A DNA stretch of 64,000 nt from a virus (taxonomy: Duplodnaviria > Heunggongvirae > Uroviricota > Caudoviricetes). Shown one piece after another: positions 12,025 through 64,000 of this stretch. The notes below the pieces were generated by a model. It was not told the DNA's origin. It did no database searches and saw only the letters and a list, made by a program, of their open reading frames with translations. Location: the IMG/VR virus record IMGVR_UViG_3300035520_000484, positions 98,993-162,992 of that record. One strand, 5' to 3'. The first letter of the stretch is position 1. Each line of letters begins with the position of its first letter. A program made the translations under genes and the position numbers.

Positions 12025-13162
12025 CTAAAATGTTATCATAAGAGCTTTTTATCTCTTATTTCCGGGAATTTCTTCCATTATACAGATTTATTCATCTGCC
12101 GGATCGGCATATATTTTTATTAATTCTTTTAATTTTATAATTATATCTCTTTTTCCAGATACTCCTAAAACTTTTCCTACAGTCCTAGTATCTTTTACAC
12201 CAATAAATTCTGCTAGATCGTTTAAAAAATTAAGTCTATTCATTTTACAATTTAATACAAGTTCTTTATTATCATGTAACCATTTAAGAATAAGATTATA
12301 TCTCTCATCTTTAAGTTTTGCATAATTTTCCATGTTTACTTGTGTTGCTAACTTAGCTTTTTCAATTACTTCTTCATGTCTAGCTTTTTGAGAACATTCT
12401 TGAGAACAGTAAGTACGATGTTTTGCTTCACAAGGTTTAAGTTTAATAACCTTATGACATACAGGACATTCGAAATCAACAAAATTTTCTAAAGCACGTT
12501 GTTTTATAGTTTCTGTACCTTTTCGGAGACCTTCTCTCATTTTGGCAGCACATTCTTCATTTTGCCATTTTAATTTAGTAGTTTCTCCAATTTTTGCTTT
12601 AGTTTCATCAGTACATTTTCCTCCATTATTTCCACCTGCTTTTAAATTATATCCTTTTTCCTTGTTTTGAGAATCGTATTCTTTAATATACTTAATCTCT
12701 AATTCGTTAAGTATGTTTAAATCATCACATTCTTCTAATATTTCCCAAGTAAAAGAATCAAATCCATATTTTTTTAAAGCATTATGAAAATAATTATCAT
12801 AATATTTAGTCCTGTTACAATCTCTCTGATGTTGACTTTTTCTATGTTCTAAAGAATTAATAGTCTATCCAATATAGACTTTCCCATTGATTTTGTTGGT
12901 TACTTTGTAAATTAACATAATTATAAAAATTTTTAAATTAACATTGGGTACTCGTGGTAACATTATATTTATTCAGTTACTATGCTCTACAGTGATAATT
13001 CGCCTTTTCGTAATCGAATTATTTACCACGGTATTATCAATGCAAATATACATATTCCTTGTAAATTAACAAAATCCACCTACGTTAATTTTTATAAAAT
13101 ATGTATTTTTTGTTTAGACTTCACCGTTTTTACCCAATTTTTAACGTGAGCCGAAGATACCC
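12025..13162 (-). other. Group I-type intron 2 within the RNR gene; carries a GIY-YIG homing endonuclease.
   Basis: Upstream exon ends ...GVNPCA on a U (gct). The intron ends ...ttttag on a G. The downstream exon resumes in frame at EEPLP. The joined protein reproduces the NPC(G/A)E catalytic-loop region. Confidence 0.75.
12088..12918 (-). CDS. GIY-YIG homing endonuclease encoded in RNR intron 2. Has one in-frame TAG codon (plus-strand CTA at 12865-12867) read as Gln.
   Basis: MLIYKVTNKINGKVYIG(TAG)TINSLEHRKSQH...KYGFDSFTWEILEECDD...ELEIKYIKEY...GYNLKAGG is a full GIY-YIG module. The TAG sits at the usual Q/S position after YIG. C-terminal Zn finger CPVCHK...C..EC. Confidence 0.7.
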
Positions 13163-49300: not shown

Positions 49301-50812
49301 AGGGTTTTATAATGCTAAAATTGCAACAAATGCAAATGCTATGTATAAAGCAAAGCATATCTTAGCAGATTTAACTTTCAGTTCTTGATTATCACCTACT
49401 AAATCTTCGATGATAGAATCAATGACGGAATGTATTGTACTTACTATTAAACCAAGAAATAGTAAGACAATACACACCTTCATTATATAGAATATTACCA
49501 CAGCCATAATAATGTGAAGAACATCACTCCTGCCAATATAGCAGGAGCAATGTAATATACATTACGAGATTTCCAATGTTTCATTTCAGTTGAGAATTTA
49601 CATAATCTGCATACGCTTTAAGAAATTCATCAATTCCTAGATAATATGCAACACCATACTTCTTAGCACGTTGTACAAAACATTTCCATGTTAAGTACTC
49701 GCCGATAATCGCTTCCTTGTTTTCAGGACAAGCGAAGTAACGGGAAAAGTTACAGTGCAACTGATCCCAGAGAGATGAGTGAATACCAAAGGCTTCACAT
49801 AAACCTTCATATTCTCTATGTAGTATTTCTTTATTCATAATTAATTTGGGTTTGTGTTTTACACCTAAAACTCTCATGCACATCGGCAAAGTTAGTAATA
49901 TCATGAATACTTTATCACTAACATGAGAGAAACTGGTGCCCTCAACATCTTGGGAAGTTATTGAGTTTTTTAATTTGCTCGTCTTTCCGAGCTGCTAACT
50001 ATCACATTGTATCATTAATACAGGAAAACCTATTCACATACGGTTTATTACTAAGGAATGTGGTACCCCAACCTGTTTTAAACACTAATGACCCCAATAC
50101 GCAGAAATAGTATAGCCAGTTCTTACTACTGCGAGAGTGGTATTGAGACCTTAGATTGATTTAACTTGGATTTCAAAAATATACCAATCATCTCCACCTT
50201 TATGAAAAGCTATATGTTCTTTAGCTTCTTCAAGAGTATTGTAAATACGAACGAGGTTGTCATTGTGGCATACCATATATCCAGATTTGAGTTCTGATGT
50301 TTTCATTGTTTTGTTGTTTTTTGGGTTATACTTCTGTTTCGTCGCAATTTTCAGCGACTCATCAGGTGTCTAATGACACGACAGAACTTAACTACTTTCA
50401 CAAGCAATTAAGTGTATAATTATTCCAAATCATGACCTCCTTAATAAAGGAGGTTTCGTCCTAGTCTCATCAGATGATATTTTAAGGTCTCCTAGGCTGA
50501 CCATAGAAATTTTCTATAATAAGAAAATTTTTAACTTATACGAATAAGTGAATAAATGTGCATACCTATATAGTCCTCGAATGACTGAGGAATTTTATAG
50601 AATGTACATTTGGGAATTAAAGGTGGGTGGTGGGTATAGACCCCCTTAATCGAAGATCCAGCCTATCACCAACCACCTTTTACCAACAATACGAAGCAAC
50701 CAATACCCAACTTTGCCTAACCAGCTATCAGGCAATACTTGAGTATGGTAAAGATTCCCATCATCATCACGAAGAAGGGAATCTTTAATCATAGTTGCTC
50801 TACAACACCGCA

Positions 50813-51340
50813 TTAGCGGCGTCTGTTATTACTCGGAGTCTCCTCTACAATATCCAAAGTGAGAATATTGTAGACTTTTGTCTCATCGACCTTACCAAAG
50901 GCAAAACCTTTGACAGGTGTCACCCTGGACACCTTGATAGTCTTACCCTTAAGACGGCTCATACCCTTCTCAACGGTACCTTCCTTACGGAACTCCTCAG
51001 TGGCTGAACCAGAGGTAACCACACGATTACCTGTAAGCTCCAACAGACCATTAACTTCACGAACCTCAGATGTAGACTTCGTGAAAGTTGACGGGAAGAA
51101 CTTCTTCACAGCTCCAAGAGAGGTGTTGACGAAGATGTATTCTGCCGAGTTTACTCGATCTCCAGACTTGATGTGCGTCTCATACACATCATACTCAGAC
51201 GGGATCTCGAAGGTCTCACCTTCAACGAAGCCAGGATTGTCGAGACTACGAATGGCCTTAGAGAAGCCAGCTACCTTGGTATCACCACCTTTGGTTGCAC
51301 GTTCTACTTCGATTGCCATAGCTGTTGCCATTTCCGACAT
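50813..51340 (-). CDS. Hypothetical protein (GC-rich island).
   Basis: 175-aa ORF. Its protein-like composition is favoured over the S/T/P/R-rich antisense ORF 50910-51356. Confidence 0.45.
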   Translation of the reverse strand: MSEMATAMAIEVERATKGGDTKVAGFSKAIRSLDNPGFVEGETFEIPSEYDVYETHIKSGDRVNSAEYIFVNTSLGAVKKFFPSTFTKSTSEVREVNGLLELTGNRVVTSGSATEEFRKEGTVEKGMSRLKGKTIKVSRVTPVKGFAFGKVDETKVYNILTLDIVEETPSNNRRR

Positions 51341-51585
51341 GATATTGTACGGTTAACCTATACACCATAAGGTTGTAAAATGAGTGCTATACACTCAACA
51401 ATAATCCGCGAAATTAACTAATATGTATACCTCGCTCGCGGAAATACGAAGTATACATATGGAGAATCTGAACATATGTCAGACCACCATTCGAATCTAT
51501 GGCTATACACATGGCTGGGTTTACTCCCGAAGGGAGTTTTTAATATTTGTTAACGTTCCGTTAACATTCAATTCCTATAGCCACA

Positions 51586-51632
51586 CAAAAAAAATATCCA
51601 ATTATCGCAACTTGGAATTACGATAATTGGAT
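51586..51632 (-). terminator. Strong rho-independent terminator after gene 51642-51929.
   Basis: 12-bp perfect stem ATCCAATTATCG / CGATAATTGGAT followed on the minus strand by TTTTTTTT. Confidence 0.75.
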
Positions 51633-51641
51633 AGATTTGTT

Positions 51642-51929
51642 TTATTGAGGGTAAATAGCGTTACCTTCTCCGTCTGTCATAAATGGAGAAAACACGTTTG
51701 AAGTTTCTTCGGGGTGAAGTGCTAACTTACTAATGAAGTCCCACGTTTTACGCAAGACTTCATCAGTTACTTTCTGTCGGTCAAAATAACCGACACTCTT
51801 TCCGTTTTTGTAGGTGAGTAGTTTCTCGATTGGCTTTAATAGCTCGTTGGTGAGTGCTATGCGGTCGATTGTAGAAAGTTCTACATTTAAGCCACAAATA
51901 GCTTCGCGGGTGATTTCGGTTGCTTTCAT
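51642..51929 (-). CDS. Hypothetical protein (GC-rich island).
   Basis: 95-aa ORF with an 8-bp inverted repeat (cccacgat...atcgtggg) upstream and a terminator downstream. Confidence 0.45.
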   Translation of the reverse strand: MKATEITREAICGLNVELSTIDRIALTNELLKPIEKLLTYKNGKSVGYFDRQKVTDEVLRKTWDFISKLALHPEETSNVFSPFMTDGEGNAIYPQ

Positions 51930-52116
51930 TTCTGTTTTGTTTTGTTGGGGTTAATGGATACGAGAAAAACTGCTCCCACGATATTAAATAATAAATCGTG
52001 GGGCAGTGGTGGGGTGCTAACTACTTAGAAAGTACCCAATCTTGAAATTGTTCAACGGTTAACACTGTACCGTTGATTTCTATTAATTCTTTCATAATAG
52101 ATTATTTAAGGGTGAA

Positions 52117-52167
52117 ACATTTAGTTTTTTAAAAACGCTAACAACACAATATAATAAATATAAAGTG
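52117..52167 (-). terminator. Rho-independent terminator after gene 52186-52887.
   Basis: 9-bp stem ACGCTAACA / TGTTAGCGT followed by a T-run on the minus strand. Confidence 0.6.
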
Positions 52168-52185
52168 CTGTTAGCGTATTTCCTA

Positions 52186-52887
52186 TTAGATTAATTCATA
52201 ATCTGAATAGGTAGACGGGTAGAACGTTAATCCCTTTGTGTCGGTGTCGTACTTTGTGCTTAGACAAGAGTGCGTTACCACCTTGATAGTCCTACACTCG
52301 CTGTAGAGCTTTTCAAACAATTTGTCAAGCTCGAATTGCTTAACAAATTCGTTTTTTCCGTTGATGCATTCTGCTGCAAGTTCGCGTACTTTGGCAACAA
52401 AACTGCCTTCTAACTGGGTAGTCTTGCTTTCGCTGAGCCATATGCGCTTTGTAACAAGTGATTTAAGGCTCATTGAATGTATGCTCCCGTTGGCACGTTG
52501 CCAATGTATGGCAATGTATTCGTGCCCTTTGTAGGAGTCATGGCGTTCGTTTGACGGCTTTTCAACGATTGTAAGTATTTCACCGTCGTTTAAACCTTGA
52601 TTACCGCTAAAAGCGTTGGCGCGAAGATTAGTATCGCGGTCGTTTGCGGCGTTGGTTACAGTTGCACTTTCGGCAACATTAGCCGTTTTTGTGGGTTCGG
52701 CTTTAACCCTGTTGTTTCTGGAATTTCCCATAAAGCAAAAAGATTTGGAATAATGCCTAAAATCCGTAGGCGCGGTATCGGAAATAAGCGGAGCCGATGC
52801 GCAACTACACCCAACAGGGTACAGTCGATAGACTGTATCACTCTTGCCTTGGCTGAGTTTACCTTTAAGACCCCAGGGGGGTCGCAA
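52186..52887 (-). CDS. Hypothetical protein (GC-rich island). The true start may be the internal Met (MGNSRNN...).
   Basis: 233-aa ORF with GC-rich codons. Confidence 0.4.
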   Translation of the reverse strand: MRPPWGLKGKLSQGKSDTVYRLYPVGCSCASAPLISDTAPTDFRHYSKSFCFMGNSRNNRVKAEPTKTANVAESATVTNAANDRDTNLRANAFSGNQGLNDGEILTIVEKPSNERHDSYKGHEYIAIHWQRANGSIHSMSLKSLVTKRIWLSESKTTQLEGSFVAKVRELAAECINGKNEFVKQFELDKLFEKLYSECRTIKVVTHSCLSTKYDTDTKGLTFYPSTYSDYELI

Positions 52888-53049
52888 AAGGTACCTGTAC
52901 CCTCCCCCTCCTAACTCACAAAATTTTTTTCATCTAGAAAATTTTTCAATTTGAAATTGATTTCCAATTACTATGGGGAGGGGGTTAATTATATTAGATA
53001 GGAATTTACTATAACTCCTTGAAAATCAGACACTTATAAAGATTTTTAT

Positions 53050-53115
53050 TTTCTACAGCGCAATAATATTTTCTGTAGGACAATAATATTTTTTGTAGAG
53101 CAATACTATTTTGCT
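53050..53115 (+). repeat. Three tandem roughly 22-bp iterons upstream of the RepL-like gene (putative replication origin).
   Basis: ttctacagcgcaataatatttt / ctgtaggacaataatatttttt / gtagagcaatactattttgc. Followed by an AT-rich 12-bp inverted repeat (aaatattttattt...aaataaaatatt). Confidence 0.6.
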
Positions 53116-53130
53116 CCAGAAATATTTTAT

Positions 53131-53161
53131 TTTGAATATTGGAAATAAAATATTATATTTG
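53131..53161 (+). promoter_or_regulatory. Bacteroidota-type promoter (TTTG at -33, TATATTTG at -7) for the RepL-like gene.
   Basis: TTTGaatattggaaataaaatatTATATTTG with 19-nt spacing, about 20 nt upstream of ATG 53181. Confidence 0.5.
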
Positions 53162-53180
53162 ATAAAAATTAATAAATACT

Positions 53181-53618
53181 ATGTATCAGCAAACTAATAC
53201 TCGTGAAATTGTAGATTGTGAAACAGGTGAAGTTAAAATAGTTGAGACTTCTAAAGTATTCACTGCAAAAGTAAGTTCAGATTCCTTTTATATGACATTT
53301 GTAGATTATCTAAGTCCTATCTTTCAATTGAAATCGGATGCTGCTAAAACTTTATTAGTATGGTTATGCAAACACGCTGACTTTAATACTGGAGTTGTAT
53401 CTATTTCTCCTGCCGATAGAAAACAGATATGCATAGAATTGAATATTACTAATTCAACTATCAGTAACAACTTAAAAAAGCTGGTAGAATTAAAACTCAT
53501 TTCCGGAAATGGAGGAAGATATTTAATTAATCCCCAAGTCTTCTGGAAGGGGGATCTTAAAGAAAGAACTAAACTACTTAAAGATAAAGAGATTCAAATA
53601 ACATTCTCTATAGATTAA
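53181..53618 (+). CDS. repL: RepL-like plasmid/phage replication initiation protein.
   Basis: Architecture and motifs resemble firmicute RepL: VDCETGEVKIVE..., central LLVWLCKHADFNTGVVSIS, wHTH ICIELNITNSTISNNLKKLVELKLISG, and the ending GGRYLINPQVFWKGD. Iterons lie immediately upstream. Confidence 0.6.
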   Translation: MYQQTNTREIVDCETGEVKIVETSKVFTAKVSSDSFYMTFVDYLSPIFQLKSDAAKTLLVWLCKHADFNTGVVSISPADRKQICIELNITNSTISNNLKKLVELKLISGNGGRYLINPQVFWKGDLKERTKLLKDKEIQITFSID

Positions 53619-53699
53619 TAACACTTTTTAACACATATCTTATTGCATATTCAACTTAGAGATAGTATATTTGCAATGTAATTAAAAATTAAATTTAAA

Positions 53700-54089
53700 A
53701 TGAATATTGAAAGACTTTTTGAACTTGCGCTAAAAAATCCTGAACATATAGAAATTGAATATTCTAATGTAAATGGTAAAGAGAAACTAATAGTAAATGG
53801 TGAAGATGTGACTGAAGGTGAAGTATTCGATGATACTAAAACTAAAGAACTTGTAAAAACATATAAAGATAATATTGAAGAACTTGATGATGATACTTTT
53901 GTAGAAGCAGTTGAAAAAATGGATGAACACATGAATATGTATGATTTTGACCAACTTCTTAATAAAGAATCATATACCTTTTATGAAGATGTTCAAATTA
54001 CAGAAATGATTGATGTTGCTAATAGTATTATTAAGCGAGTTATTTCTGATAAAATAAATGATCTTTTTAACCTTAGAGCCAGATTCTAA
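53700..54089 (+). CDS. Acidic hypothetical protein.
   Basis: Intact 129-aa ORF in the plus-strand module. Confidence 0.4.
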   Translation: MNIERLFELALKNPEHIEIEYSNVNGKEKLIVNGEDVTEGEVFDDTKTKELVKTYKDNIEELDDDTFVEAVEKMDEHMNMYDFDQLLNKESYTFYEDVQITEMIDVANSIIKRVISDKINDLFNLRARF

Positions 54090-54117
54090 ACATAGTGGGA
54101 ATCTTTCCCACTAATAC

Positions 54118-54191
54118 TGCCCAATAGTATAAAGGTTTAATTACGACGCACTCTAAATGCGAAAATAACAGTTCGAGTCTGTTTTGGGCGA
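54118..54191 (+). tRNA. Amber suppressor tRNA (anticodon CUA), reading UAG.
   Basis: Acceptor TGCCCAA / TTGGGCG. D-arm GTA-TAAAGGTTTAAT-TAC. Anticodon stem ACGCA / TGCGA with loop CTCTAAA (C32 U33 C34 U35 A36 A37 A38). T-arm AACAG-TTCGAGT-CTGTT. Discriminator A. Preceded by the hairpin AGTGGGA-atct-TTCCCACT. Confidence 0.8.
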
Positions 54192-54193
54192 CT

Positions 54194-54475
54194 ATGAACA
54201 TATCTTTTATTTATAATAGAAAACTTTATCAACCTAAGAATCCAGAAAAGAAATTAAAGCAATTAGGAATTACTTGGGATGATGTAAAAATTATTAATAA
54301 CAAATCTAATGAAATTAAAGAAGAATATGAAGATCCAAACAGATTATACTATTTTATAAATCCGAAAACTGGATGGTCTATAACTTCTATAAATCCAGTA
54401 TGTAAATATGATGATTATGAACAATGTACTAAAGAAACTTTAGAAACTTACTGGTCTCAAAACAGGAAAGTTTGA
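54194..54475 (+). CDS. Hypothetical protein.
   Basis: Intact 93-aa ORF immediately after the suppressor tRNA. Confidence 0.35.
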   Translation: MNISFIYNRKLYQPKNPEKKLKQLGITWDDVKIINNKSNEIKEEYEDPNRLYYFINPKTGWSITSINPVCKYDDYEQCTKETLETYWSQNRKV

Positions 54476-54649
54476 TAATGATAAGAATAGAGTTTATAAT
54501 ATGTGTCAAATGTCTATTCTAATGTTAGAAGGAATCTGGAATGAAATAGAAGAGCTAGGACTTAAAGATGAACAAATGGTACTCGATTGGCTTGACCATA
54601 TAAATGAAATATCTGTAAGAAATTAAATTTTTATTATGTTATATAGCAA

Positions 54650-54690
54650 GAAACCCGACATGGAAATGATTCCGTGCCGGGTTTTATTAT
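54650..54690. terminator. Bidirectional hairpin terminator at the convergence of the plus-strand module and the minus-strand late operon.
   Basis: aaaCCCGaCAtggaaatgattccgTGcCGGGtttt. T-runs on both strands. Confidence 0.55.
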
Positions 54691-55449
54691 TTAATAATGT
54701 TTAGCAGGTACTGGAGCACCTTGATATTGAGTAAACTAAAATCTTGAAGGACCATATGAAAGATTACCAGTGTCTGATAAAGGAGCTAAAGTAGCAGCTG
54801 CCGCATCAGAAGCTCTTTCATCAATACTCTTACTTAAACTACTAGCTTGAGAAGTAGCGTAGCTAAAAGGTGCAGTAGGAAATCCTGCATATCTCTAATA
54901 AGCTCCAAATGTAGGACTAGTTGAATATCCGTAATGTCCTGAAAGACTAGGAGTTTGAATAGTTCTATATGAACTAAGACTAGGTGTAGTTATTTCAGGA
55001 AGTGTTGAATTATCAAAAGCAGGTTCAGAAACATCTGAAGTTGTTACTTCATTAGGAGTAGATGATTTAACAGTAGATGACGTAACAGATTTACTAGTAG
55101 AGATACGCTATCTAGGCTTTAATCTAGTATTAGCAGTAACATCATGAGTTTTTAAATATGTGTCATTTGCAATTTTATTATCTAGTTCTTCATCTGCTGC
55201 TGTATATGTATAATCATCAAACTATTCATCACCTTTAATAACATCTCCTGCTTTAGGAGTTCCTTTAAATAATTTAGTACTTTTAGGAGTTACCCATTCA
55301 TCAGGAACTTCAATTACTTGTCCTATTTTTAATTTAACACTAGGTGTATGGTTAAGCTCTACTAATTTATTGTATTGCCCCCCCCTACCTGTTAATGCTT
55401 TGGCAATACCCCAATAGGTATCGCCTTTTTTAATTATGTACTTTGCCAT
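54691..55449 (-). CDS. LysM-domain protein with a Ser/Thr-rich C-terminal region. Four in-frame TAG codons.
   Basis: N-terminal AKYIIKKGDTYWGIAKAL...YNKLVELN...LKIGQVIEVP is a LysM domain. Reading continues through TAG at 55222 to TAA at 54691. Confidence 0.6.
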
Positions 55450-55562
55450 TTTGTTTTAATTTATTTTAATTTATTTAATTTATTTTACCACCATATTTCT
55501 TCATGTGTATAAAAGGACATAGCCTAATTGTTAATCCTCTTATTTTATTTGTTCTTAAAGTT

Positions 55563-55935
55563 TCAATAGCCTAAAGTATATCTTATATTAGGTATTCTTT
55601 CGGTTATTGGTTCAATGTTAAAATAATCCACAATAGAAGTTCCGTTCTCAGGAGATTCAAATATCATATGAGACGCATCTCTACCATATGCATGAGGCAC
55701 CTTAAGTTTTTCAAGATAGCTATTAGTATTAAATAAAGACACGGAGTTTAAATTTTTAAACATGCCGTCATTCCCTGTATGCATGCCATTAGCATTTATT
55801 GTAATATTTGACGAAAATCTAGGAAATCTCTAACTCCACCATGTTTCTATAGGGCCTTTAGGATTTATGGTCTTGGGAGTATACAAAGCGGTTTTGTTTC
55901 CATACTTCTTAGACCATATTGGATTAAATACAACA
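55563..55935 (-). CDS. Hypothetical late protein (one in-frame TAG). Start overlaps the upstream stop (ATGA).
   Basis: Open with TAG as sense: MNVGNPDVVFNPIWSKKYGNKTALYTPK...W(TAG)RFPRF...MHTGNDGMFKNLNS.... Ends TGA. Confidence 0.5.
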
Positions 55936-57016
55936 TCTGGATTACCTACATTCATATAATACATTCCGTTTTTCCTTCGAAAGTTTTTCCTTGGATAACA
56001 GAAAACGCATTTATTAAATCTTCTTTTGATATATTATTGGGAAGGTTCATCCTTCTTAAGAATGTGTTAGATTGTTTCATTAAGTCTTTAACATAATCTT
56101 CAAGATTTATTATATTCCCATTTCTATAATCATTTGCTATTTGCTGTAAGTACTACGGGGATTCTTTAGCTATATTATACAATACTTTATTATCTTTAAT
56201 AGTCTAAAGGTCTTGAAGATATTGATCGGATGCATTTCTACCCTATTCTAATCCGTCTTTTATATTTTGTAAAGTTGATTCGTCATTAAAATAAAAATCT
56301 CCTTTAGGAGTAATTCTATACTCATTTTCTAAAGCCTATAATTGAGGATTAAGTTCTCTTATTTGGTTTAATGATATATTAACAGGTTCTCCATTTCTAT
56401 TATATTTTTGAGAAAATTGGCGCACTAAAGAAGGATCTTTTATATATTTAAGAAACCTGCCTCTAATATAAGGATTTCTTAATCCTCTCCTTCCTTGTTT
56501 GTTCATATTTTTAGCTAACCACCATACATCTTTAAAATTACGAGAAGTTCTAGCAAGAGCACTTACTCCTTTACCTAAATACTACATACCTTTAGTTGTA
56601 ACATAATCTTCTAAACCTGTGTATGGGGCAACTAAATAGAATAAATCATTACTCTATTCTAAAGGAGCCTCTGATAAGAACGCTCTTTTTCTTGTATTAT
56701 TACCCCATATATCTGTATAGTTAAATCCATTAGCATCCTAAGTAAGTAATGTAGGTAATTGCCAAGGAACAGTGTTAGGATTAACTCCTGTTGTTACTGT
56801 TCCTGCATTTCTTGATTCTGGCTAAGTAATATGAACTATATTTCCATTTACATCTGTATAAATCTCATAATCAGGATTACTATCAAGAACTTCCTATACT
56901 GTTTTTACATTACCATTTGTATCTACAATTTCAGTTATATTTCCCCAATCAGATATATCTTTGACTTTTCTTCTAAAAAGACCGACATTTTTAGTATCAG
57001 CATTATCAAGTGTCAT
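55932..57016 (-). CDS. Hypothetical late/structural protein (about 12 in-frame TAG codons).
   Basis: Open with TAG as sense for about 361 codons: MTLDNADTKNVGLFRRKVKDISDWGN...ECII-stop. Start overlaps the end of the upstream gene. Confidence 0.55.
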
Positions 57017-57758
57017 ATTGTCTAGAATTTTTAAATCGTTGTATTACAGAACCTTGTTTCGCCATAGGAAGAATGTCAGAGGAATCATTCTAAGCTACTT
57101 CATTAAACAATTTTATTAAATCTTTATCTTCAAACATATCTAATTTAAATAGGTTGATTGCATCTCTATGAGAATCTAGAAATTTCTAATCAACAATTTG
57201 TTCTGGTTTCATTTTAGTTGCGTACCTAAATTCCATCATTCGAGAATATATTTCATTAGGATCTAACAAATATTCTGCATTATCACTACTCCATCCATCT
57301 TTTGCTTTAGCTGTCTATTCGATTTCACCAATAGCATATATTTGAGGATTAGCTCTCATAGCATGGGTATATTCATGAAGTTCTGGATACGTATACTTCT
57401 CTTCTTTAAATATAGGAGGTCTTATATGAACTTCATGCTTACTAGGACTGTAATATCCTAAAGCTAATCCACCATCCCAATCGTGGAGTGTATCATTATA
57501 AAGTTTAGCAGATGCAGCATTTTCTATTTGACTATAGAAATTCTTATTTACATAAGTTCTTCTATTAAAAGAATTTGCTCTAGCCCATTCTTTCTACGGA
57601 ATGTTATAAGTATCACGAGAAGTAAAATGAAATATTCCTCCTAAATTGTTATATAACTAAGCTCTTCTGTGATTTAACCAATTAGCTAGCCATTCAATAG
57701 TTTGACTATCACTTTTAGGAGGTTTATAATTAGAAATAGGTGTAGTATAATCTGACAT
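57006..57758 (-). CDS. Putative zincin-like metallopeptidase (HExxH), late gene with six in-frame TAG codons.
   Basis: MSDYTTPISNYKPP...YTYPELHEYTHAMRANPQ... contains HEYTH. Ends TGA. Start overlaps the TAA of the upstream gene (TAATG). Confidence 0.5.
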
Positions 57759-59274
57759 TATTGTTTTTGTTGATTATTTAATAAATACATTCCTCCTGAA
57801 AATATTCCTACTTTCATCATAGCTTCTTTTGCTTTAGAAACTATTTCATTTAATTTAGGATACTTTTTAGCTAACTCTGTTAATTCTTCAGAAGATGCGA
57901 ATAATAAGTTATCAGTATCTATTCCTGTAATATTAGAAATTTCTTTAATTATAGATGAAGTATAAGGCTAGTCTATTTCCATTTTTAAAATTTCTCCTGA
58001 AGGAGTATTTTTGATAACTTCATCTAGTTCTTTTCCAAAAATCAGATTTAGGGATTCCTGCTTTTCCGCTTCAGTAAGATTAGAAGGTCTTTGATAGAAA
58101 GAATAGTTAGCTTTAGGAGTATTAGATACTACTCTTCTAAATCCATAATTAGGTTCCCATATATAAGCAGAAGTATTTTCAAGATTTAGCTAATCTTCAG
58201 AGAATGGGATCCTTCTTCCTGACATATCTCTCTTAGCTACCCGTGCATTTTTTGTAGCAAATTGTAAAGGTTCTCTAGTTACTAAAAGTCCTGGATGACT
58301 AGCATCAATTCCATTAACTATATCACCATCATACCATAAACCTCCCTATTTAAACATTGGATTGTCAAAGGTTTTACCAAAATCGAAAGTTCCAACATTC
58401 GTTTCTACTAAATTAACATTTTCAGTATTAGGATAATCTACTCTAACCTTCCTAGAATTTAAAAAATCTTTAACTATATTTGTAGAACCCTATCTATAAT
58501 TTAAATTCGGGTCATTTATTTCCACATCACCTGAACGATATCTCATCTTAGGAGCTAAGTCTGGAGTTTCTACCTCTCCTAATGGCATTCTACTAAGTTT
58601 ATATCCAAGTATAGATGGCTTGACAGCATTGTAAGAAATCTGTCCAACTCTATTTAGAAATGGAAGACTACTACCTCCAACTACAGAACCTATAAGCTAT
58701 CCTAAATATGGAGAATCATACTATTCCCCAATGTATCTACCACCTTCTCCTCCAATCCATGATCCTATTAATGGTTTTACTCCAATATTTCCAAATAACC
58801 CCAGCAGTCCAAGATCAATAACACCAGATATAGCAGCATTATTAAGTACCTACTAATATCCAGGTATATTATAAGCTCTCATTAATTGCCCCTGTCCACC
58901 TCTAAATAAACTACCAATGAAAGGTACATAGTCTGTAGAATGTGACATAATTTTATCTCCATTTTCTATATTATTTTTTATCTATTCCTTTTCTCTCATA
59001 TATTCTCCAGCCTATTCTTGAGATTGCTTCTAAGCATCTGTTCTATTATCCTAAATTACTTTTCCAGTAGACTACAACTATTTTTTAGGAACCTCTACAT
59101 ATCCATTTTCATATGGAACTCGAGTTACAGATGCATTATGTTTAGCTTCTGATTCTTTAGCTATGTTATATGCAAGTAATCTCTACTCAATATTTATAGG
59201 AGCGGTAGTATTATCAGATAATTCTTTTTGTACGAAAGAGTTTTTAATAATTGGTTTTCCCATATATATTATTT
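57758..59274 (-). CDS. Hypothetical late/structural protein, about 505 aa, Gly-rich hydrophobic segment. About 17 in-frame TAG codons.
   Basis: Open with TAG as sense: MGKPIIKNSFVQKELSDNT...GVIDLGLLGLFGNIGVKPLIGSWIGGEGGRYIG...LLNNQQKQ-stop. The ORF track shows only tiny fragments here. Confidence 0.55.
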
Positions 59275-59279
59275 GCTAT

Positions 59280-60045
59280 ATCTTTTTCTAAAATTTTCAA
59301 TAACATTAATTATTCTACCGCCATATTTATAAGACATATTATTTGCGTACTGATGGATAGTTTCTACATATCCTTTTTCTCCAGAATTAATTTGATTTAA
59401 AGGGATTTTGAACATGTTGATAAGAATATCTTCATCTATATTAGTATCCCATTTATTATAATCAGATTGATGCTTTTTATATTGATATTTAGCATCTTCT
59501 GTTACCCTATCAACATCCCATCCAGATTTTTCCCAACCTTTTAATAATGCAATATAAGGACTATCATCAAAGTATCTCCAATTACTGGTTATAAGAGAAG
59601 GCCCGATACTATCTGGCGAATCCGCATAAATCCAATGGCGAGGAGTACTCTTTCCTAAATAATATCTATTAGATCTGCCAGGATCTGTAGCTCCCGAAGA
59701 CTCTTTAATAGCTATAGCTAATCCCTATTTAGGAGATATTCCAGTAGCTTGTGAAGCCTGTACAATTTTATCAAATACCTCTATAGGTATGTTATAAGTT
59801 CCTCTGCCTTTAACAGTAACAGGTTTAGTTTTACCAGAAAGTTGAATAAGCTGTTTTTCTTCATTATTTATTCTATGAACATATGTAGTAACCGCTTTAT
59901 CAAAAGTTTTTTTAAATTCTGGAGAAGATTTATATTTCTAATATGTGGAAAATTTTATAAAAGGAAATAAAATATACTTTTTTAATCCACCTCCTGAAAG
60001 CCATATTTCATCATTTGATTCATTATGAATATATACTTGTTCCAT
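59280..60045 (-). CDS. Late protein, possibly lysozyme-like (ES motif). One in-frame TAG.
   Basis: MEQVYIHNESNDEIWLSGG...IVQASQATGISPK(TAG)GLAIAIKESSGATDPGRSNRYYLG... Start overlaps the upstream TAA (TAATG). Confidence 0.45.
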
Positions 60046-62030
60046 TATTTAAGTTTTCCTCCTAATTTAAATATTTTTTCAGAGCTTGCGTATCTTTCAG
60101 GAACGTTTACTTCATACCAAGTATTACCCTTTGGATCAGTTACTATAGAAGGTTCTGTTCCAAATAATTTCTTAAACTATTTAGGAAAATCACTATACTT
60201 TTTCAATATAGTTTTGTGAGCATCAGTATAATCTTCTATTTTTGGAACTTCATCCATCATTTGTCGACTACGCATTGTATAGTGATCAAAGATATTCTCC
60301 ATAACATCAGCAGTTCTTTGATCTCTTACATAATTTAGCATGTACTTATCTAAGAGTGTTGTTAAGTCCCCGTCAGTATATGGATCTTTTAATAACGATC
60401 TATAATAATTAACTCGATCTTTGTTTGTAGGATTAGTCTATAAAAATTCTATAAATTTTGTTATCCTAGGATCATTTGCGTATTTAGGATTCTCTTTGAC
60501 TAGATTTAATAAATCAGAAAGGTATCCATGATTATTTACCACATCTTTAAATTTACTTGCTCTCTCATTTAAAAATTCGTACTATTTTTTCTATCCAGGT
60601 GCCCATTGTGGAATTTCCTGAGGTTCATATCCTTCTACAGTAATAGCAGTTTCACGAGTAGGGTAGCGCATTGTTTTATACCCACGTGTGGAAGCGAAAT
60701 CAAGATTTTCTTGTAAGTGTCTGTCCAAATAATTTTTAGCCATATACTCACTAATAATATTTTTTTCTTGATCTTTAGGAGTATTTTTATTAAACCATTG
60801 TGCCCAATCACTTTGTGTTTCTGGAACATATAATACACCAGGCTCATCATATGTAGTAAAGAATCTAGAATGACCAATAGGAGCGCTGTTAAAATGATTA
60901 GTACTACCTCCAACAGAGGGATTATTAAAAGTAAGACTGTATATTTCTTTTACACTTGGATCAGTAGGAAGTTTACCATTTTTTGATGCATCATACCCTC
61001 CTCCATATCGTGTTTTGTGAATTATTTCTTGTCGTGATGGTGCCTTATATCCTAATTCTTTCATTCCATATGCAGCCCATGTATCTTCAAGACCAATATC
61101 TTCATACGAAGGAATTAATTCTGATACTTCCTTTCGTAAATCATTATAATCTATAAACTTATCAGCAGTATGATTTGCTAAAACTTGAGAAATCAATTCT
61201 TTATCTACTTTTGAAACTTCTGGCTTATTTAAATACTATTGTAACTATTTAATAGAAATAGTCCCTTGTTTAGATAATTGTTTTTCTAACTAAGATCCTC
61301 TTGCTAATGATTTAGGCATATAAGCTCCAGGAATTTCCTATATTTTATAAGGTTCTGGAGTAAAATACGGATTAGTTTGACCTTTTGTAAATAATGTTGT
61401 GGGTGTAAAACCATTTGCAACATATTCACCAGTCAAAGGAGTATTATGTAAAACATTACCCATATAACCATAGCCAGTATATTTACCTCCTGATACTCCA
61501 CGTAATGCTTTAGCAAACCAATTAGTATAGTCACTACTTGAACGTGTCATAGGAATTGCTGATAACGCAGTCATTACACCATTATACAAAGAGGGATCTT
61601 TTACAAACTCTTTACCATTATCATATAAGAAATATCCAGAAGTTCCAAGATTAGCAGTTGTGCCTAACCAAGCAGGGGCACCTATCAAATCTAAATAAGT
61701 AGAAGGAGTCATTAATGCTCCGACATAAGGAGCTGTAACAGCACCTAATCCAGCAGCAGCTGCACCTAATGCTTGAGTACCAAAGAAGTTCATCCAACTG
61801 TTTTGATTAAACTAGTTATGCACTCTTTCATCAGCTGCGGCTTTCTCTGTTATTCTAGCGTCAGATTTTTCTAATTGATTGGAAGAGTTTGGAGTAACAT
61901 CAGAACTCGCATATTCTATTCCTCCTGTCTATTCACCAGTATTAGGATTGTGTAAAACATAAGGCTCAACAGGCCTACCTGACAATTTTCCAACAAAAGA
62001 GCCAAGTCCTACTTTTTCTTCTTCACCCAT
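60045..62030 (-). CDS. Large late protein (about 660 aa, 9 in-frame TAG codons). N-terminal Gly/Ala-rich hydrophobic domain paralogous to gene 36613-38577.
   Basis: Continuous frame from ATG 62030 through track ORFs 61338-61793 and 60591-61196 once TAG is read as sense. [64 protein letters not shown] aligns to the paralogue. Confidence 0.7.
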
Positions 62031-62230
62031 TATTCAGTCTTTATATTTTTAAATATACCAGTAACAGAATCTATTCCAAGTAATAAACAGATTGCATAAA
62101 TAAAAGTGTCAATCATTTCAGGAGCTTGTATTCCATTAATGGTACAAAAGATTAATACACCAATAATTACTAAAAATCCAATGACACCACACACTCTTTT
62201 AGAAGATATTCCTGAGTGTGAGGTGACCAT
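62030..62230 (-). CDS. Small membrane protein (2 TM), holin-like.
   Basis: 66 aa: GVIGFLVIIGVLIFCTINGI and FIYAICLLLGIDSVTGIF. Its TAA overlaps the ATG of the downstream gene. Confidence 0.45.
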   Translation of the reverse strand: MVTSHSGISSKRVCGVIGFLVIIGVLIFCTINGIQAPEMIDTFIYAICLLLGIDSVTGIFKNIKTE

Positions 62231-62247
62231 TTTCTTTATAAATTCAA

Positions 62248-62805
62248 TTAATTTCTACATTGTATAAAATCTAACAATAATAGTTCTTTATCAGTAGTTG
62301 CTTCAGAATTATGTTTCTTAGCAAACCACCAAGGCCAAAAACAATATTTAGAGTTCATAGATGAAATATACTAATCATAAAAAGATTCATCATAAGGAGA
62401 TTCATATAATCTTTTCCAATCAAACTTTCTAGTAAATTGCCAGAAAGTAATATTAGGAAAGGTTTCAATTATATATTTAATAAAATCAACAAATAAATTT
62501 TCTTGTCGACTATCTTCTTTAGATGTTTCTAGAATTAATCTAATAGTACATCCACCCATATCATTTAAATATTTAAAATAATCAACTACATTACCTTTAT
62601 ATTTAGCTATCCCATGACAGAAATAAGGATTCATATGTTTATCAAATCTGATTCTAAAATCAAAATCCCTAATTCCATATTGTTCATATTGTTGTGCTAT
62701 AGTTTTAGATTGACATTTAGCTATCCAATTAAATGGATAAATCCACCAATTTTTTAAAGGTAGATATGTAGCTGAATTATGAGTTCCTATTCTCATTAGA
62801 TACAA
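62248..62805 (-). CDS. PLC-like phosphodiesterase (PI-PLC X-domain-like). One in-frame TAG.
   Basis: MRIGTHNSATY resembles the PI-PLC active-site motif PGTHDS. A second His sits in FCHGIAKY. Reading continues through TAG at 62371 to TAA at 62248. Confidence 0.4.
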
Positions 62806-63053
62806 AGAGCTGACCAGCCAACTTGAGAACCAACTAAAGCTAAAACTGCATCAACTAATAGCATCTTCCATGTAGGAACTGAATCAAAATCTGAGGATTT
62901 AACTTTATGGAAATATCCTACTAACATAGAAAGAATAAATCCAACTATCATAGCAACTGCTACTACTCCTGTATTAGCAAGAATACCTGCTGAAACAAGT
63001 GCTGTTGCTAATGTAAAAATCATATTATTCTGTACTTTTGTATTTTTAAACAT
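62796..63053 (-). CDS. Small membrane protein (2-3 TM), holin candidate.
   Basis: 85 aa, hydrophobic segments IFTLATALVSAGILANTGVVAVAMIVGFILSMLVGYF and LLVDAVLALVGSQVGW. Sits between muralytic and phosphodiesterase genes. Confidence 0.45.
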   Translation of the reverse strand: MFKNTKVQNNMIFTLATALVSAGILANTGVVAVAMIVGFILSMLVGYFHKVKSSDFDSVPTWKMLLVDAVLALVGSQVGWSALCI

Positions 63054-63059
63054 AGTTTT

Positions 63060-64000
63060 TTATTTATTATAATTTAAAGAATTTTGTAAAATCTTTGCTC
63101 TTTTTGATACATTCATAACTCTATCATAATACCCATTTGCATTATTCCATCCTGATACTGCTTTTTGTATATTCATACCTCTATCTAGATAATTTCTAGA
63201 TAATATAAACATAGTAGCAATTGCAGCTTTTACAGGATCAAATAAAGAGTCTTTAGTAATCCCATATCTTCTAAATAATTCTTTAGTGGTTTTGTCTAGG
63301 TTAGATAATCTAATTTGTGTTAAACCTATAGAATTATTATCTCCATTAATTCCATATGTTTTATATTTAGAATATACATCAGGAGAACTTGCACTTCCCA
63401 TTCCAAAAACTTTGTGCGCTACTTTATTTCCAAACCTTGCTAAATTATCAATAGCAGTATGTTGTTTACCATAATTAGACTCAACGCCTAATATACCTAA
63501 GGCTGCCTAAGCTAATTGAATATAGGTATCATTATTAATACCTAATTCTTTCTAAATCATAGTTTTATATCTAATTAATCCTTTAGAAAAATCAGTATAT
63601 ACTTTCTTTTGATGATCATCAAGTCCTTTTGTACTAAAATGAATAGTTTTAATAGGAGTGTAATCTTTTTCATGATGACTTGGAGTTAAATTAAGATCAT
63701 GAGATTTAAAAGAAAGTTTTCCATTTCTAACAGCAAATTTATTATCTGAATTTACAGGTAGAATATATGTAGGCACATTCTCGTATCCTTTCAATAAATT
63801 ATTTAGTGTTTGTAGATCTTCTTTTGATAACCCTGTGCATCCATTAGTATTAGCACCTACAACACCAACATCACCAACATCACGTGCATGTATAGAAGAA
63901 GGTATACCTTTTGGATTATTTTTGTCTACCATAGCTTGAGTCCTTCTTATAAATGAAGGTGCCCCGCCATAAGAACCACTACGAGTAGTAAAATAAACAC
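63060..64000 (-). CDS. Muralytic protein with a C-terminal soluble lytic transglycosylase (SLT)-like domain. Partial; continues past the window end. Three or more in-frame TAG codons.
   Basis: ...LGVESNYGKQHTA...GSASSPDVYSKYKTYGINGDNNSIGLTQIRLSN... has the ES catalytic motif and GLTQI (compare GLMQI). The frame is open upstream to position 64000. Confidence 0.55.

What the first reader, a model, noticed from the sequence alone, without database searches (positions are those of the whole stretch)
53050..53618. RepL-like initiator with three 22-bp iterons and an AT-rich inverted repeat: a plasmid-type origin inside the phage.
Three tandem iterons (consensus about tNtaGNGcaataNtatttt) and a 12-bp AT-rich inverted repeat overlap a Bacteroides-type promoter directly upstream of a protein whose sequence and layout match the firmicute RepL family. 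Together with the suppressor tRNA immediately downstream, this plus-strand module looks like an autonomous replication and decoding cassette.
Basis: partly seen in the sequence, partly recalled or inferred. Interest (0 to 1): 0.6.

Follow-up and report, generated by a model that had tools for sequence, protein, structure and literature searches.

The report
RepL-type plasmid-like origin in phage
A large gut phage related to crAssphage carries a small plasmid-type replication starter gene (RepL) preceded by the same set of DNA repeats found in front of RepL genes on tiny bacterial plasmids, so this is most likely a replication origin; it is real and conserved, but of a kind already known.

Summary
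There are 3.3 tandem repeats of 20 bp (not 22) at 53047-53112. A perfect 12-bp AT-rich inverted repeat lies at 53121-53154 and overlaps a TTTG-N19-TATATTTG promoter-like site. A 145-aa ORF at 53181-53618 scores above the Pfam RepL threshold (30.5 bits against 20.3).

Of 50 non-redundant homologous loci, 32 have 20-21-bp tandem repeats about 100-150 nt upstream of the gene. The repeat sequence differs between lineages.

Five small RepL plasmids (1.2-5 kb) have the same box, repeats and gene order. The experimentally dissected pHW126/pIGRK/pIGMS31 origins are described as a conserved region plus iteron-like repeats.

Best reading: a RepL-type origin plus autoregulated initiator at the head of the replication module of a TAG-recoded crAss-like phage. 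Origin activity is inferred, not shown.

The 'autonomous replication and decoding cassette' idea is not supported. A suppressor tRNA does recur downstream in about a quarter of loci.

Verdict: new member of a known kind, moderate interest.

The parts
52735..52989 (.). G+C-rich, strongly self-complementary non-coding stretch. It contains the palindrome GACCCCAGGGGGGTC at about 52868-52882 and the pairing CCCTCCCCCTCC (52900-52912) with GGGGAGGGGG (52974-52985). Possible accessory single-strand-initiation-like or terminator region; it belongs to the element only by inference.
   Evidence: Folded as ssDNA, z = -5.1 on the + strand and -4.9 on the - strand, with 0 of 200 shuffles as stable. CCCC(N)GGGG palindromes occur at a similar distance upstream in L004, L011, L012, L013 and L025. 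pHW126-type plasmids are described as carrying an accessory ssi-like palindrome as part of their replication module (bioRxiv 10.1101/2022.12.05.519187).
52990..53002 (+). Conserved TAGATA box (TATATTAGATAGG), 5' part of a 'conserved region'.
   Evidence: WAGATA lies 50-59 nt 5' of the repeat array in 13 of 32 non-redundant loci; 6.8% expected per locus, binomial p 6e-8. A similar box (AATATAATAGATAAC, AATATAATAGATATAC and others) lies 27-45 nt 5' of the first repeat in four of five RepL plasmids.
53010..53038 (.). Conserved 29-bp palindrome TATAACTCC-TTGAAAATCAG-ACACTTATA. Family consensus is GTAACT-N3-TGAWWATCA-N3-AGTTAC.
   Evidence: Aligned in 17 non-redundant loci. 77% of cells are complementary in register, against 22-45% when slid. 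There is no compensatory covariation beyond shuffles, so it looks like a dyad protein site rather than a selected hairpin. The composite box plus centre occurs once in the 64-kb window (expected 0.05).
53047..53112 (+). Three full 20-bp iteron-like direct repeats and one partial (53047-53066, 53067-53086, 53087-53106, 53107-53112).
   Evidence: Conserved in position, with three copies sharing the CT(AC/GT)AG core, in the closest relatives L023 and L025-L027. Equivalent 20-21-bp arrays with other sequences occur in 32 of 50 non-redundant loci.
53121..53161 (+). 92% A+T stretch holding the 12-bp inverted repeat (53121-53132 and 53143-53154) and the Bacteroidetes-type promoter-like site TTTG (53131-53134)-N19-TATATTTG (53154-53161). 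Candidate operator and/or unwinding region.
   Evidence: GC is 8.3% for 53120-53179. The block is conserved in L023 and L025-L027. The arms share AATATTTT with the 3' part of the iterons (pairs I16 and I17).
53181..53618 (+). repL-like gene: 145 aa, single winged helix-turn-helix, TAA stop, no in-frame TAG.
   Evidence: PF05732 above threshold. 116 homologues of about 148 aa, nearly all PF05732. 24-34% identity over 83-96% of its length to RepL proteins of 1.2-6 kb plasmids. AlphaFold model has pLDDT 77, with the wHTH core at 85-93.
53642..53673 (+). Second promoter-like site, ATTG-N20-TATATTTG, in front of the next ORF.
   Evidence: Read directly from the sequence. It has the same -7 box as the sites listed. 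Not tested further.
53700..54089 (+). 129-aa acidic ORF of unknown function, co-oriented with repL.
   Evidence: No Pfam, PHROG or NCBIfam family. 48% identical homologue in the same position in L025 and L026.
54118..54192 (+). Suppressor tRNA, anticodon CTA (reads UAG).
   Evidence: ARAGORN. Rfam tRNA 52.8 bits. TAG is in-frame in the late genes at 54691-64000 and 36613-38586. A CTA tRNA lies 0.5-1.9 kb downstream of repL on the same strand in 9 of 40 non-redundant loci.
54194..54475 (+). 93-aa ORF, last gene of the plus-strand islet.
   Evidence: 62% identical homologue directly after the tRNA in L025 and L026. No family hit.

Best explanation
Positions 52990-53618 form a RepL-type replicon: a cis-acting origin followed by the gene for its initiator. 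It sits at the head of the replication-gene module of a large, AT-rich, TAG-recoded crAss-like phage.

Proposed mechanism, by analogy with the pHW126/pIGRK/pIGMS31 relatives of RepL:
1. Dimers of the 145-aa winged-helix RepL protein bind the three quasi-palindromic 20-bp repeats. The repeats are spaced two helical turns apart, so the dimers sit on one face of the DNA.
2. RepL probably also binds the conserved box and palindrome to the left.
3. This nucleoprotein complex opens, or nicks, the DNA nearby. The 92% A+T stretch to the right is the obvious unwinding candidate.
4. The phage's own DnaB-like helicase, primase and PolA, all encoded in the same window, are then loaded.
5. The inverted repeat over the -33/-7 promoter shares AATATTTT with the iterons. 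It would let RepL repress its own transcription.

Shown here: family membership, the repeats, their conservation of position and period across lineages with divergent sequence, and the shared layout with RepL plasmids.

Inferred: binding, opening or nicking, autoregulation, and whether the origin serves lytic replication or plasmid-like carriage.
For: (1) PF05732 is above its gathering score. 116 homologues have the same length and domain.

(2) There is full-length similarity to RepL of very small plasmids, including a 1,241-bp Staphylococcus plasmid whose only annotated gene is repL. Members of this family are therefore sufficient replication proteins.

(3) Tandem repeats of period 18-23 are about 15 times more frequent in the 450 nt upstream of the gene than elsewhere in 28 sequences (27 fetched loci, some near-duplicates, plus the window): 1.76 against 0.117 per kb. 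In the non-redundant set, 32 of 50 loci have them. Periods are 21 (22 loci) or 20 (8 loci), with a median of 2.6 copies at a median position of -150 to -100.

(4) Repeat sequence changes between lineages and tracks the helix-2/helix-3 motif of the protein. This is as expected for cognate sites, although shared descent also predicts it.

(5) L001-L003 carry two tandem RepL paralogues. Each is preceded by its own 20-21-bp array.

(6) All five RepL plasmids examined have 22-bp repeats, 2.1-3.5 copies, 67-171 nt upstream of repL, and four of the five have a TAGATA box 5' of the repeats.

(7) In pIGRK the origin was mapped to a conserved region plus four iteron-like repeats. The Rep protein binds both and autoregulates. 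These Reps are described as distant relatives of pSN2 RepL (PMC6854812; bioRxiv 10.1101/2022.12.05.519187).

(8) In most relatives the gene is the first gene of a co-oriented block, after a non-coding gap of at least about 250 nt. In about half of them this is a strand-switch point. In the prototypic crAssphage, one repL is likewise the first gene of the replication strand, with an Ori-Finder origin directly upstream (PMC10983915).

(9) No other recognisable origin-binding initiator was found among 20 ORFs of the window's replication region.
Against: No experiment or coverage data show that replication starts here.

The Pfam score is modest, and NCBIfam gives no hit.

GC skew in the window follows gene orientation and shows no independent origin signal.

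There are no DnaA boxes nearby.

18 of 50 loci lack a TRF-detectable array. At least one of these (L023) has degenerate copies visible by alignment.

The replication mode of RepL plasmids themselves, rolling-circle or theta, is unsettled in the literature.
Confidence: 0.68

Rival explanations
1. The RepL-like protein is only a transcription factor, for example an autorepressor or early-gene switch. The 20-bp repeats, the palindrome and the inverted repeat are its operators, controlling the divergent early promoters and possibly the suppressor-tRNA operon. There is no origin function.
For: The fold search is dominated by wHTH repressors. Profile-to-PDB matches are only weak hits to MarR/ArsR regulators (E 0.04-0.8). 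Each repeat is a quasi-palindrome, as in repressor operators. The region is a divergent promoter region. A RepL-family wHTH protein acting in gene expression is indicated by the title of PMC10655114, seen only in the listing and not read. The pHW126-type Reps also act as regulators of several promoters (bioRxiv 10.1101/2022.12.05.519187).
Against: The closest characterised relatives are the sole replication proteins of 1.2-5 kb plasmids, and they share the same cis layout. The position at the head of the replication module matches the predicted crAssphage origin (PMC10983915). Regulation and initiation are not exclusive: iteron initiators normally do both.
Confidence: 0.17
2. The element is a working RepL origin, but it serves plasmid-like persistence (a phage-plasmid or carrier state) rather than lytic replication. 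A second, unseen origin outside the window would drive the lytic cycle.
For: This lifestyle has been proposed for the prototypic crAssphage on the basis of two repL genes and two predicted origins (PMC10983915). Some relatives carry two RepL paralogues, each with its own repeats. A phage-encoded DnaJ (35780-36619) recalls chaperone activation of iteron-plasmid initiators; that link rests on general knowledge of P1 RepA and F RepE.
Against: No partition, toxin-antitoxin or resolution genes were seen next to the locus. Only one RepL lies in this 64-kb window. Homologues are almost absent from bacterial genome assemblies: 4 loci in 185,579 species genomes, three of which encode a near-full-length relative on MAG contigs of phage-like size.
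Confidence: 0.12
3. The repeats are chance low-complexity structure in AT-rich intergenic DNA, and the RepL match is a spurious wHTH hit.
For: The region is 22-28% GC. The AT-rich inverted repeat alone has about a 5% chance expectation.
Against: Position, period and copy number of the repeats are conserved across 32 of 50 lineages with unrelated sequences. Box-to-repeat spacing is conserved with p 6e-8. The same layout is found in plasmids. The Pfam match is full-length and above threshold in nearly all 116 homologues.
Confidence: 0.01

Closest known systems
pHW126-family plasmid replication modules (pHW126, pIGRK, pIGMS31; Enterobacteriaceae)
   Same: Both have a small wHTH Rep protein distantly related to RepL. 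The origin is a conserved region followed by about 20-bp iteron-like direct repeats immediately upstream of the rep promoter. Inverted repeats lie at the promoter for autoregulation, and an accessory palindromic region is part of the module (PMC6854812; bioRxiv 10.1101/2022.12.05.519187). The window has the same order: structured palindromic stretch, box and palindrome, three 20-bp repeats, inverted repeat over the promoter, rep gene. The best plasmid hit (34% identity, E 1e-7) is a 2,334-bp Klebsiella plasmid with 22-bp repeats in 3.5 copies. Its family was not checked.
   Different: Three repeats here rather than four. The host is probably Bacteroidota, with a Bacteroidetes-type promoter. 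The replicon is a phage genome of more than 64 kb (relatives reach 155-205 kb) with its own helicase, primase and polymerase, not a 2-3 kb plasmid. The 29-bp palindrome GTAACT-N3-TGAWWATCA-N3-AGTTAC was seen only in the phage loci. No nicking or binding data exist for the phage protein.
RepL (PF05732) plasmids of the pSN2 family and related small plasmids of Firmicutes and Gammaproteobacteria
   Same: Same Pfam family and similar protein size (145 against about 157-170 aa). Tandem repeats, 2.1-3.5 copies, lie 67-171 nt upstream of repL. A TAGATA-type box lies 5' of the repeats in four of the five plasmids examined.
   Different: The repeat period is 22 bp in all five plasmids and 20-21 bp in the phage clade. 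Identity is only 24-34%. The plasmids are classed as rolling-circle replicons with a dso and ssoA (PMC5703833); this has not been examined for the phage.
RepL genes of the prototypic crAssphage (Carjivirus communis) and other Crassvirales
   Same: A RepL-family gene is the first gene of the replication-strand block, with a predicted origin directly upstream (PMC10983915). The window's phage is crAss-related by its primase: 36-39% identity to Crassvirales primases.
   Different: That work predicted origins with Ori-Finder, GC skew and coverage, and does not use the word iteron (0 occurrences). The present clade is not close to catalogued crAss-like genomes (no blastn match in 50,697 phage records; only 4 weak tblastn hits for the protein). 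Here the conserved cis elements are defined by comparison of 50 loci.
Classical iteron theta plasmids (Rep_3 family: pPS10 RepA, F RepE, R6K pi; P1 plasmid RepA)
   Same: Logic only: tandem 17-22-bp initiator sites next to an AT-rich stretch and the rep gene, with an inverted repeat at the rep promoter for autorepression.
   Different: Those initiators have two winged-helix domains (WH1 and WH2). Here there is one wHTH, with no Rep_3 Pfam hit. No DnaA boxes lie nearby. The iterons here are themselves quasi-palindromes.

Membership tests
RepL protein family (Pfam PF05732) | Sequence match to the family profile above the curated gathering score, over most of the domain | tested here: met
   30.5 bits against a cut-off of 20.3, E 3e-7, residues 5-134 on profile positions 10-133 of 164. 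PF05732 is precomputed for nearly all 116 homologues.
RepL protein family (Pfam PF05732) | Small (about 18 kDa) single helix-turn-helix protein | tested here: met
   145 aa. The AlphaFold model shows an N-terminal beta-hairpin, a wHTH core (pLDDT 85-93) and a C-terminal helix and strand. The pSN2-family description is in PMC5703833.
RepL protein family (Pfam PF05732) | Direct similarity to RepL proteins that are the replication gene of small plasmids | tested here: met
   tblastn against PLSDB: 18 plasmids, 24-34% identity over 83-96% of the query, most annotated 'replication/maintenance protein RepL'. One is a 1,241-bp plasmid with repL as its only gene.
RepL protein family (Pfam PF05732) | Required in trans for replication of the cognate origin | not testable with these tools
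   Needs a replication assay.
RepL/pHW126-type replicon (cis architecture) | Two to four iteron-like direct repeats of about 20-22 bp directly upstream of the rep promoter | tested here: met
   3.3 copies of 20 bp at 53047-53112, 69-134 nt before the ATG. Five reference plasmids have 22-bp repeats, 2.1-3.5 copies, at -171 to -67.
RepL/pHW126-type replicon (cis architecture) | A conserved, non-repeated region 5' of the repeats that is part of the minimal origin | tested here: inconclusive
   A conserved box and palindrome exists at 52990-53038 and is shared across phage lineages. A TAGATA box also occurs in four of five plasmids. The published CR sequences of pHW126 and pIGRK were not available for alignment, so homology of the two 'conserved regions' was not established.
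RepL/pHW126-type replicon (cis architecture) | Rep binds the repeats and its own promoter (autoregulation, incompatibility) | not testable with these tools
   Only indirect evidence: an inverted repeat over the promoter shares AATATTTT with the iterons, and inverted repeats of at least 12 nt occur in 20% of loci against 5% of shuffles.
Rolling-circle replicons (HUH or Rep_trans initiators with a nick site in a hairpin loop) | Initiator with a nuclease domain (HUH and catalytic Tyr motifs) | tested here: not met
   No Rep_1, Rep_2 or Rep_trans Pfam hit; only wHTH families besides RepL. The 145-aa model has no room for a nuclease domain. The literature notes the same for pSN2 and pHW126 Reps, although nicking in vitro is reported for pIGMS31 RepM (bioRxiv 10.1101/2022.12.05.519187).
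Rolling-circle replicons (HUH or Rep_trans initiators with a nick site in a hairpin loop) | Conserved hairpin maintained by compensatory changes at the origin | tested here: not met
   The 29-bp palindrome shows no covariation beyond shuffled controls: 77.4% paired against 78.6% in shuffles.
Rep_3 / classical iteron theta initiators | Two tandem winged-helix domains (PF01051) | tested here: not met
Crassvirales-related phage (context of the window) | Replication proteins most similar to those of crAss-like phages; TAG reassignment in late genes with a CTA suppressor tRNA | tested here: met
   The best annotated hits of the primase are Crassvirales (36-39% identity), together with Bacteroides, Flavobacterium and Cellulophaga crAss-like phages. 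There are 2-17 in-frame TAG per late ORF and a tRNA(CTA). Hallmark capsid, terminase and RNAP genes are not in the window, and late proteins have no PHROG hits. Assignment to a particular family, such as the Zeta group, is therefore not established.

The most novel reading that the evidence does not exclude
The suppressor tRNA that switches the phage to reading TAG as an amino acid lies in the same plus-strand unit as repL in 9 of 40 non-redundant loci. If it is expressed from the RepL-controlled promoter, replication itself could time the genetic-code switch. As the genome copies accumulate, the growing number of iteron arrays would titrate RepL off its operator. This would de-repress the repL-tRNA unit and license translation of the TAG-laden late genes only after DNA replication is under way.
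Probability: 0.08. Interest if true: 0.8.

Novelty: new member of a known kind. Interest (0 to 1): 0.42.

Why it matters
Replication origins of crAss-like and other abundant gut phages have so far been predicted mainly from skew and coverage.

Here the candidate origin has a defined anatomy: box, palindrome, lineage-specific 20-21-bp iterons, promoter and repL. This anatomy is shared by about 50 distinct phage lineages from human gut and rumen metagenomes and by small RepL plasmids of Firmicutes and Proteobacteria.

That gives three things:
- a concrete fragment of about 200 bp plus one 145-aa protein to test;
- a possible basis for Bacteroidota shuttle vectors or phage engineering;
- a link between the poorly understood RepL/pHW126 plasmid replicons and large phages.

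It also bears on the debated phage-plasmid lifestyle of crAssphage. It does not reveal a new principle.

Tried and rejected
- blastn of 52000-56000 against 50,697 phage records found no match.
- A single-protein scan of IMG/VR found nothing; the alignment-based scan worked.
The pattern was too loose, so the scan was uninformative.
- PHROGs on six TAG-to-Q translated late proteins, and tblastn of one of them, gave no hits. The phage could be placed only through its primase.
- GC skew: cumulative skew falls monotonically with the minus-strand genes and rises only over the plus-strand islet. It reflects gene orientation, not an origin.
- DnaA boxes: 25 matches at up to 1 mismatch against 23 expected, none between 46 and 55.5 kb. 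Rejected as part of the element.
- Hairpin hypothesis for the palindrome (RCR-type nick hairpin, N4-type hairpin promoter or small RNA): no compensatory covariation. The composite motif is single-copy in the window, so it is not a general promoter.
- IHF-site idea: the palindrome's right half fits WATCARNNNNTTR in the window, L011, L023 and L025. This is a by-eye match to a low-information E. coli consensus and was not pursued.
- Fold search could not discriminate initiator from regulator.
- The sigma-70 promoter and terminator scan was at chance level.
Full report
WHAT IS THERE

The window is AT-rich (about 29% GC) and almost all long ORFs are on the minus strand. To the left of the finding lie replication genes: PolA-type polymerase, ligase, ribonucleotide reductase, primase, DnaB-like and SF helicases.

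To the right (54691-64000), and at 36613-38586, ORFs are long only if TAG is read as sense, with 2-17 in-frame TAG each. The primase is most similar to those of Crassvirales and other Bacteroidota crAss-like phages, at 36-39% identity. The late proteins match nothing catalogued. The context is therefore a TAG-recoded, crAss-related phage whose exact family I could not establish.

A short plus-strand islet (53181-54475) sits between the two minus-strand blocks. It contains the 145-aa ORF, a 129-aa ORF, a tRNA with anticodon CTA and a 93-aa ORF.

THE OBSERVATION

TRF reports one array at 53047-53112: period 20, 3.3 copies, 82% matches. The three full copies are in register at 53047, 53067 and 53087.

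Each unit is a quasi-palindrome. The central hexamer is CTACAG in copy 1 and its reverse complement CTGTAG in copies 2 and 3.

The 12-bp inverted repeat is exact (53121-53132 and 53143-53154). It overlaps TTTG-N19-TATATTTG (53131-53161), which fits the Bacteroidetes -33/-7 consensus. Its TATATTTG box recurs in four of the other seven exact pattern matches in the window.

Taken alone, the inverted repeat is only marginally unusual for such AT-rich DNA: 5% of shuffles reach 12 nt. The 60 nt before the gene are 92% A+T.

The ORF scores 30.5 bits on Pfam RepL, against a gathering score of 20.3, over nearly the whole domain.

COMPARATIVE TEST OF THE REPEATS

The protein has 116 homologues in the large protein collection. 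All are about 148 aa, nearly all carry PF05732, and some lie on contigs of 90-178 kb.

I fetched 27 loci from IMG/VR, ENA and Logan, 77 from metagenomes and 4 from genome assemblies. In the first 27 loci plus the window (28 sequences, some near-duplicates), tandem repeats of period 18-23 occur at 1.76 per kb in the 450 nt upstream of the gene. Elsewhere the rate is 0.117 per kb.

After dereplication to 50 upstream regions:
- 32 have such an array.
- The period is 21 in 22 loci and 20 in 8 loci.
- The median copy number is 2.6.
- The median position is -150 to -100.

The repeat sequences are unrelated between lineages. Examples are CTRYAGRRCAATA here and in L023 and L025, TTCACGTACACGTGAAG in the L011 group, AGCACATATAATATGT in L150 and L152, and TCCCTCTAAAGAGGGA in L010. 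They follow the sequence of helices 2-3 of the protein.

Many are internally palindromic, which suggests dimer binding. L001-L003 have two tandem RepL paralogues, each with its own array.

It is clearly not met.

Aligning the upstream regions shows two lineage-independent motifs 5' of the variable repeats:
- A TAGATA(AGATA) box, at window positions 52990-53002.
- About 10-15 nt further on, a 29-bp palindrome with consensus GTAACT-N3-TGAWWATCA-N3-AGTTAC, at window positions 53010-53038.

The box lies 50-59 nt before the first repeat in 13 of 32 loci, where 6.8% per locus is expected (p 6e-8). The composite occurs once in the 64-kb window, so it is not a general promoter.

The palindrome is complementary in register (77%, against 22-45% when slid). 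It shows no compensatory covariation beyond shuffles. I therefore read it as a dyad protein-binding site rather than a selected hairpin.

Further left, 52735-52989 is G+C-rich and folds far better than shuffles as single-stranded DNA (z about -5 on both strands). Similar CCCC(N)GGGG palindromes occur in several relatives.

LINK TO PLASMIDS

tblastn against PLSDB finds 18 plasmids with 24-34% identity over 83-96% of the protein. Most are annotated RepL. I examined five:
- Staphylococcus, 1,241 bp, with repL as its only gene
- Klebsiella, 2,334 bp
- Aeromonas, 3,484 bp
- Bacillus, 3,562 bp
- Arsenophonus, 5,003 bp

All five have 22-bp tandem repeats, 2.1-3.5 copies, 67-171 nt upstream of repL. 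Four have a TAGATA-type box 27-45 nt before the first repeat.

The literature on the pHW126 family describes the same anatomy experimentally. Its Reps are described there as distant relatives of pSN2 RepL. The minimal origin is a conserved region plus four iteron-like repeats. The Rep protein binds both and represses its own promoter through inverted repeats. An accessory ssi-like palindrome is also part of the module. For pIGMS31, nicking in vitro and both rolling-circle and theta intermediates were reported (PMC6854812; bioRxiv 10.1101/2022.12.05.519187). The review PMC5703833 lists RepL (pfam05732) as the initiator of the pSN2 plasmid family and notes how little is known about it.

LINK TO crAssphage

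A 2024 preprint points out two RepL genes in the prototypic crAssphage. One is the first gene of the replication strand, with an Ori-Finder origin directly upstream. The authors argue for a phage-plasmid lifestyle. The paper does not use the word iteron (PMC10983915).

The 2025 paper on Zeta crAss-like phages does not mention RepL at all. Full-text searches for crAss plus iteron, and for RepL plus iterons plus phage, returned nothing relevant.

In the relatives fetched here, the RepL gene is usually the first gene of a long co-oriented block, after a non-coding gap of at least about 250 nt. In about half of them this is a strand-switch point.

MECHANISM

The best-supported reading is a RepL-type origin plus initiator. 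RepL dimers would sit on the three 20-bp sites, spaced two helical turns apart and so on one face of the DNA. RepL probably also contacts the conserved box and palindrome. The DNA would be opened or nicked nearby, with the 92% A+T stretch as the unwinding candidate. The phage's own helicase and primase would then be recruited. The promoter inverted repeat shares AATATTTT with the iterons (pairs I16 and I17) and would serve as the autoregulatory operator.

Only homology, anatomy and conservation are shown. Every biochemical step is inferred.

Whether the origin serves lytic growth or plasmid-like carriage cannot be decided here. Homologues are nearly absent from bacterial genome assemblies, and no partition or addiction genes flank the locus.

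THE 'CASSETTE' IDEA

Nothing marks the plus-strand islet as an autonomous or mobile unit. The order 129-aa ORF, tRNA(CTA), 93-aa ORF is conserved in the closest relatives. A CTA tRNA lies 0.5-1.9 kb downstream of repL on the same strand in 9 of 40 non-redundant loci from several lineages. This is a real but partial association.

A second promoter-like site (ATTG-N20-TATATTTG, 53642-53673) precedes the 129-aa ORF, so co-transcription with repL is not required. The speculative reading that RepL titration by replicated iterons times the code switch is recorded as the novel case, at low probability.

VERDICT

The finding is a real, conserved feature, correctly interpreted in its core. It extends a known replicon type (RepL/pHW126-like) to a large clade of crAss-related gut and rumen phages, and it defines that clade's cis elements. 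It is a new member of a known kind, of moderate interest.

Noticed in passing
window 50331-50387 (-) and 50429-50503 (-): Two hammerhead ribozymes about 40 nt apart. Both score above Rfam gathering thresholds: Hammerhead_3 at 49.8 bits (GA 48.5) and RAGATH-1-hammerhead at 76.7 bits (GA 56.3). They sit at the left edge of the GC-rich block.
   Followed up: no
window about 50500-52900: A block of 41% GC in a 29% GC genome. It carries three minus-strand ORFs (50813-51340, 51642-51929, 52186-52887) with no Pfam or NCBIfam family and only one weak PHROG hit of unknown function. The 175-aa ORF has 30-32% identical homologues upstream of repL in L026 and L011, so the block is not a unique insertion. 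The reason for its composition is unexplained.
   Followed up: partly
window 54118-54192; loci L005, L011, L025, L164, L172, L175, L179, L182: A suppressor tRNA(CTA) recurs 0.5-1.9 kb downstream of the RepL-like gene on the same strand in 9 of 40 non-redundant loci. L005 also has a TCA-anticodon tRNA there.
   Followed up: partly
window 35780-36619 (-): Phage-encoded full-length DnaJ: J domain at 103.8 bits, plus the CXXCXGXG and C-terminal domains. DnaJ/DnaK activate several plasmid and phage initiators (general knowledge), so a link to RepL is conceivable but untested.
   Followed up: no
window 36613-38586 (-) and 60045-62033 (-): Two TAG-rich ORFs, with 15 and 10 in-frame TAG. They share an N-terminal segment (…TPNS(G/S)NQLEK(A/S)DA…ADERVH(K/N)QF(D/N)QNSW…[12 protein letters not shown]…) and so look like paralogues. 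One lies isolated inside the standard-code replication region.
   Followed up: no
L001-L003, about 3058-3720 and 3908-4357: Two tandem RepL-like paralogues, each preceded by its own 20-21-bp repeat array. The upstream copy is split by an in-frame stop (possible recoding or decay). A further 21-bp array of 4.3 copies lies at 2072-2162.
   Followed up: partly
window 39306-40292 (-) and 10447-12972 (-): An HNH endonuclease gene, and a ribonucleotide-reductase large subunit that appears split into two ORFs (10447-12024 and 12088-12972). This could reflect mobile-element or intron insertion, as reported for Zeta crAss-like phages (PMC7886860).
   Followed up: no
window 54090-54117: A hairpin AGTGGGA-atctt-TCCCACT lies directly between the stop of the 129-aa ORF and the 5' end of the tRNA(CTA), with no T-run after it. 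It could be a processing signal or a weak terminator (read).
   Followed up: no
L004, about 360 nt upstream of its RepL gene: A perfect DnaA box (TTATCCACA) lies in the RepL upstream region of this one relative. None lies near the RepL gene in the window.
   Followed up: partly
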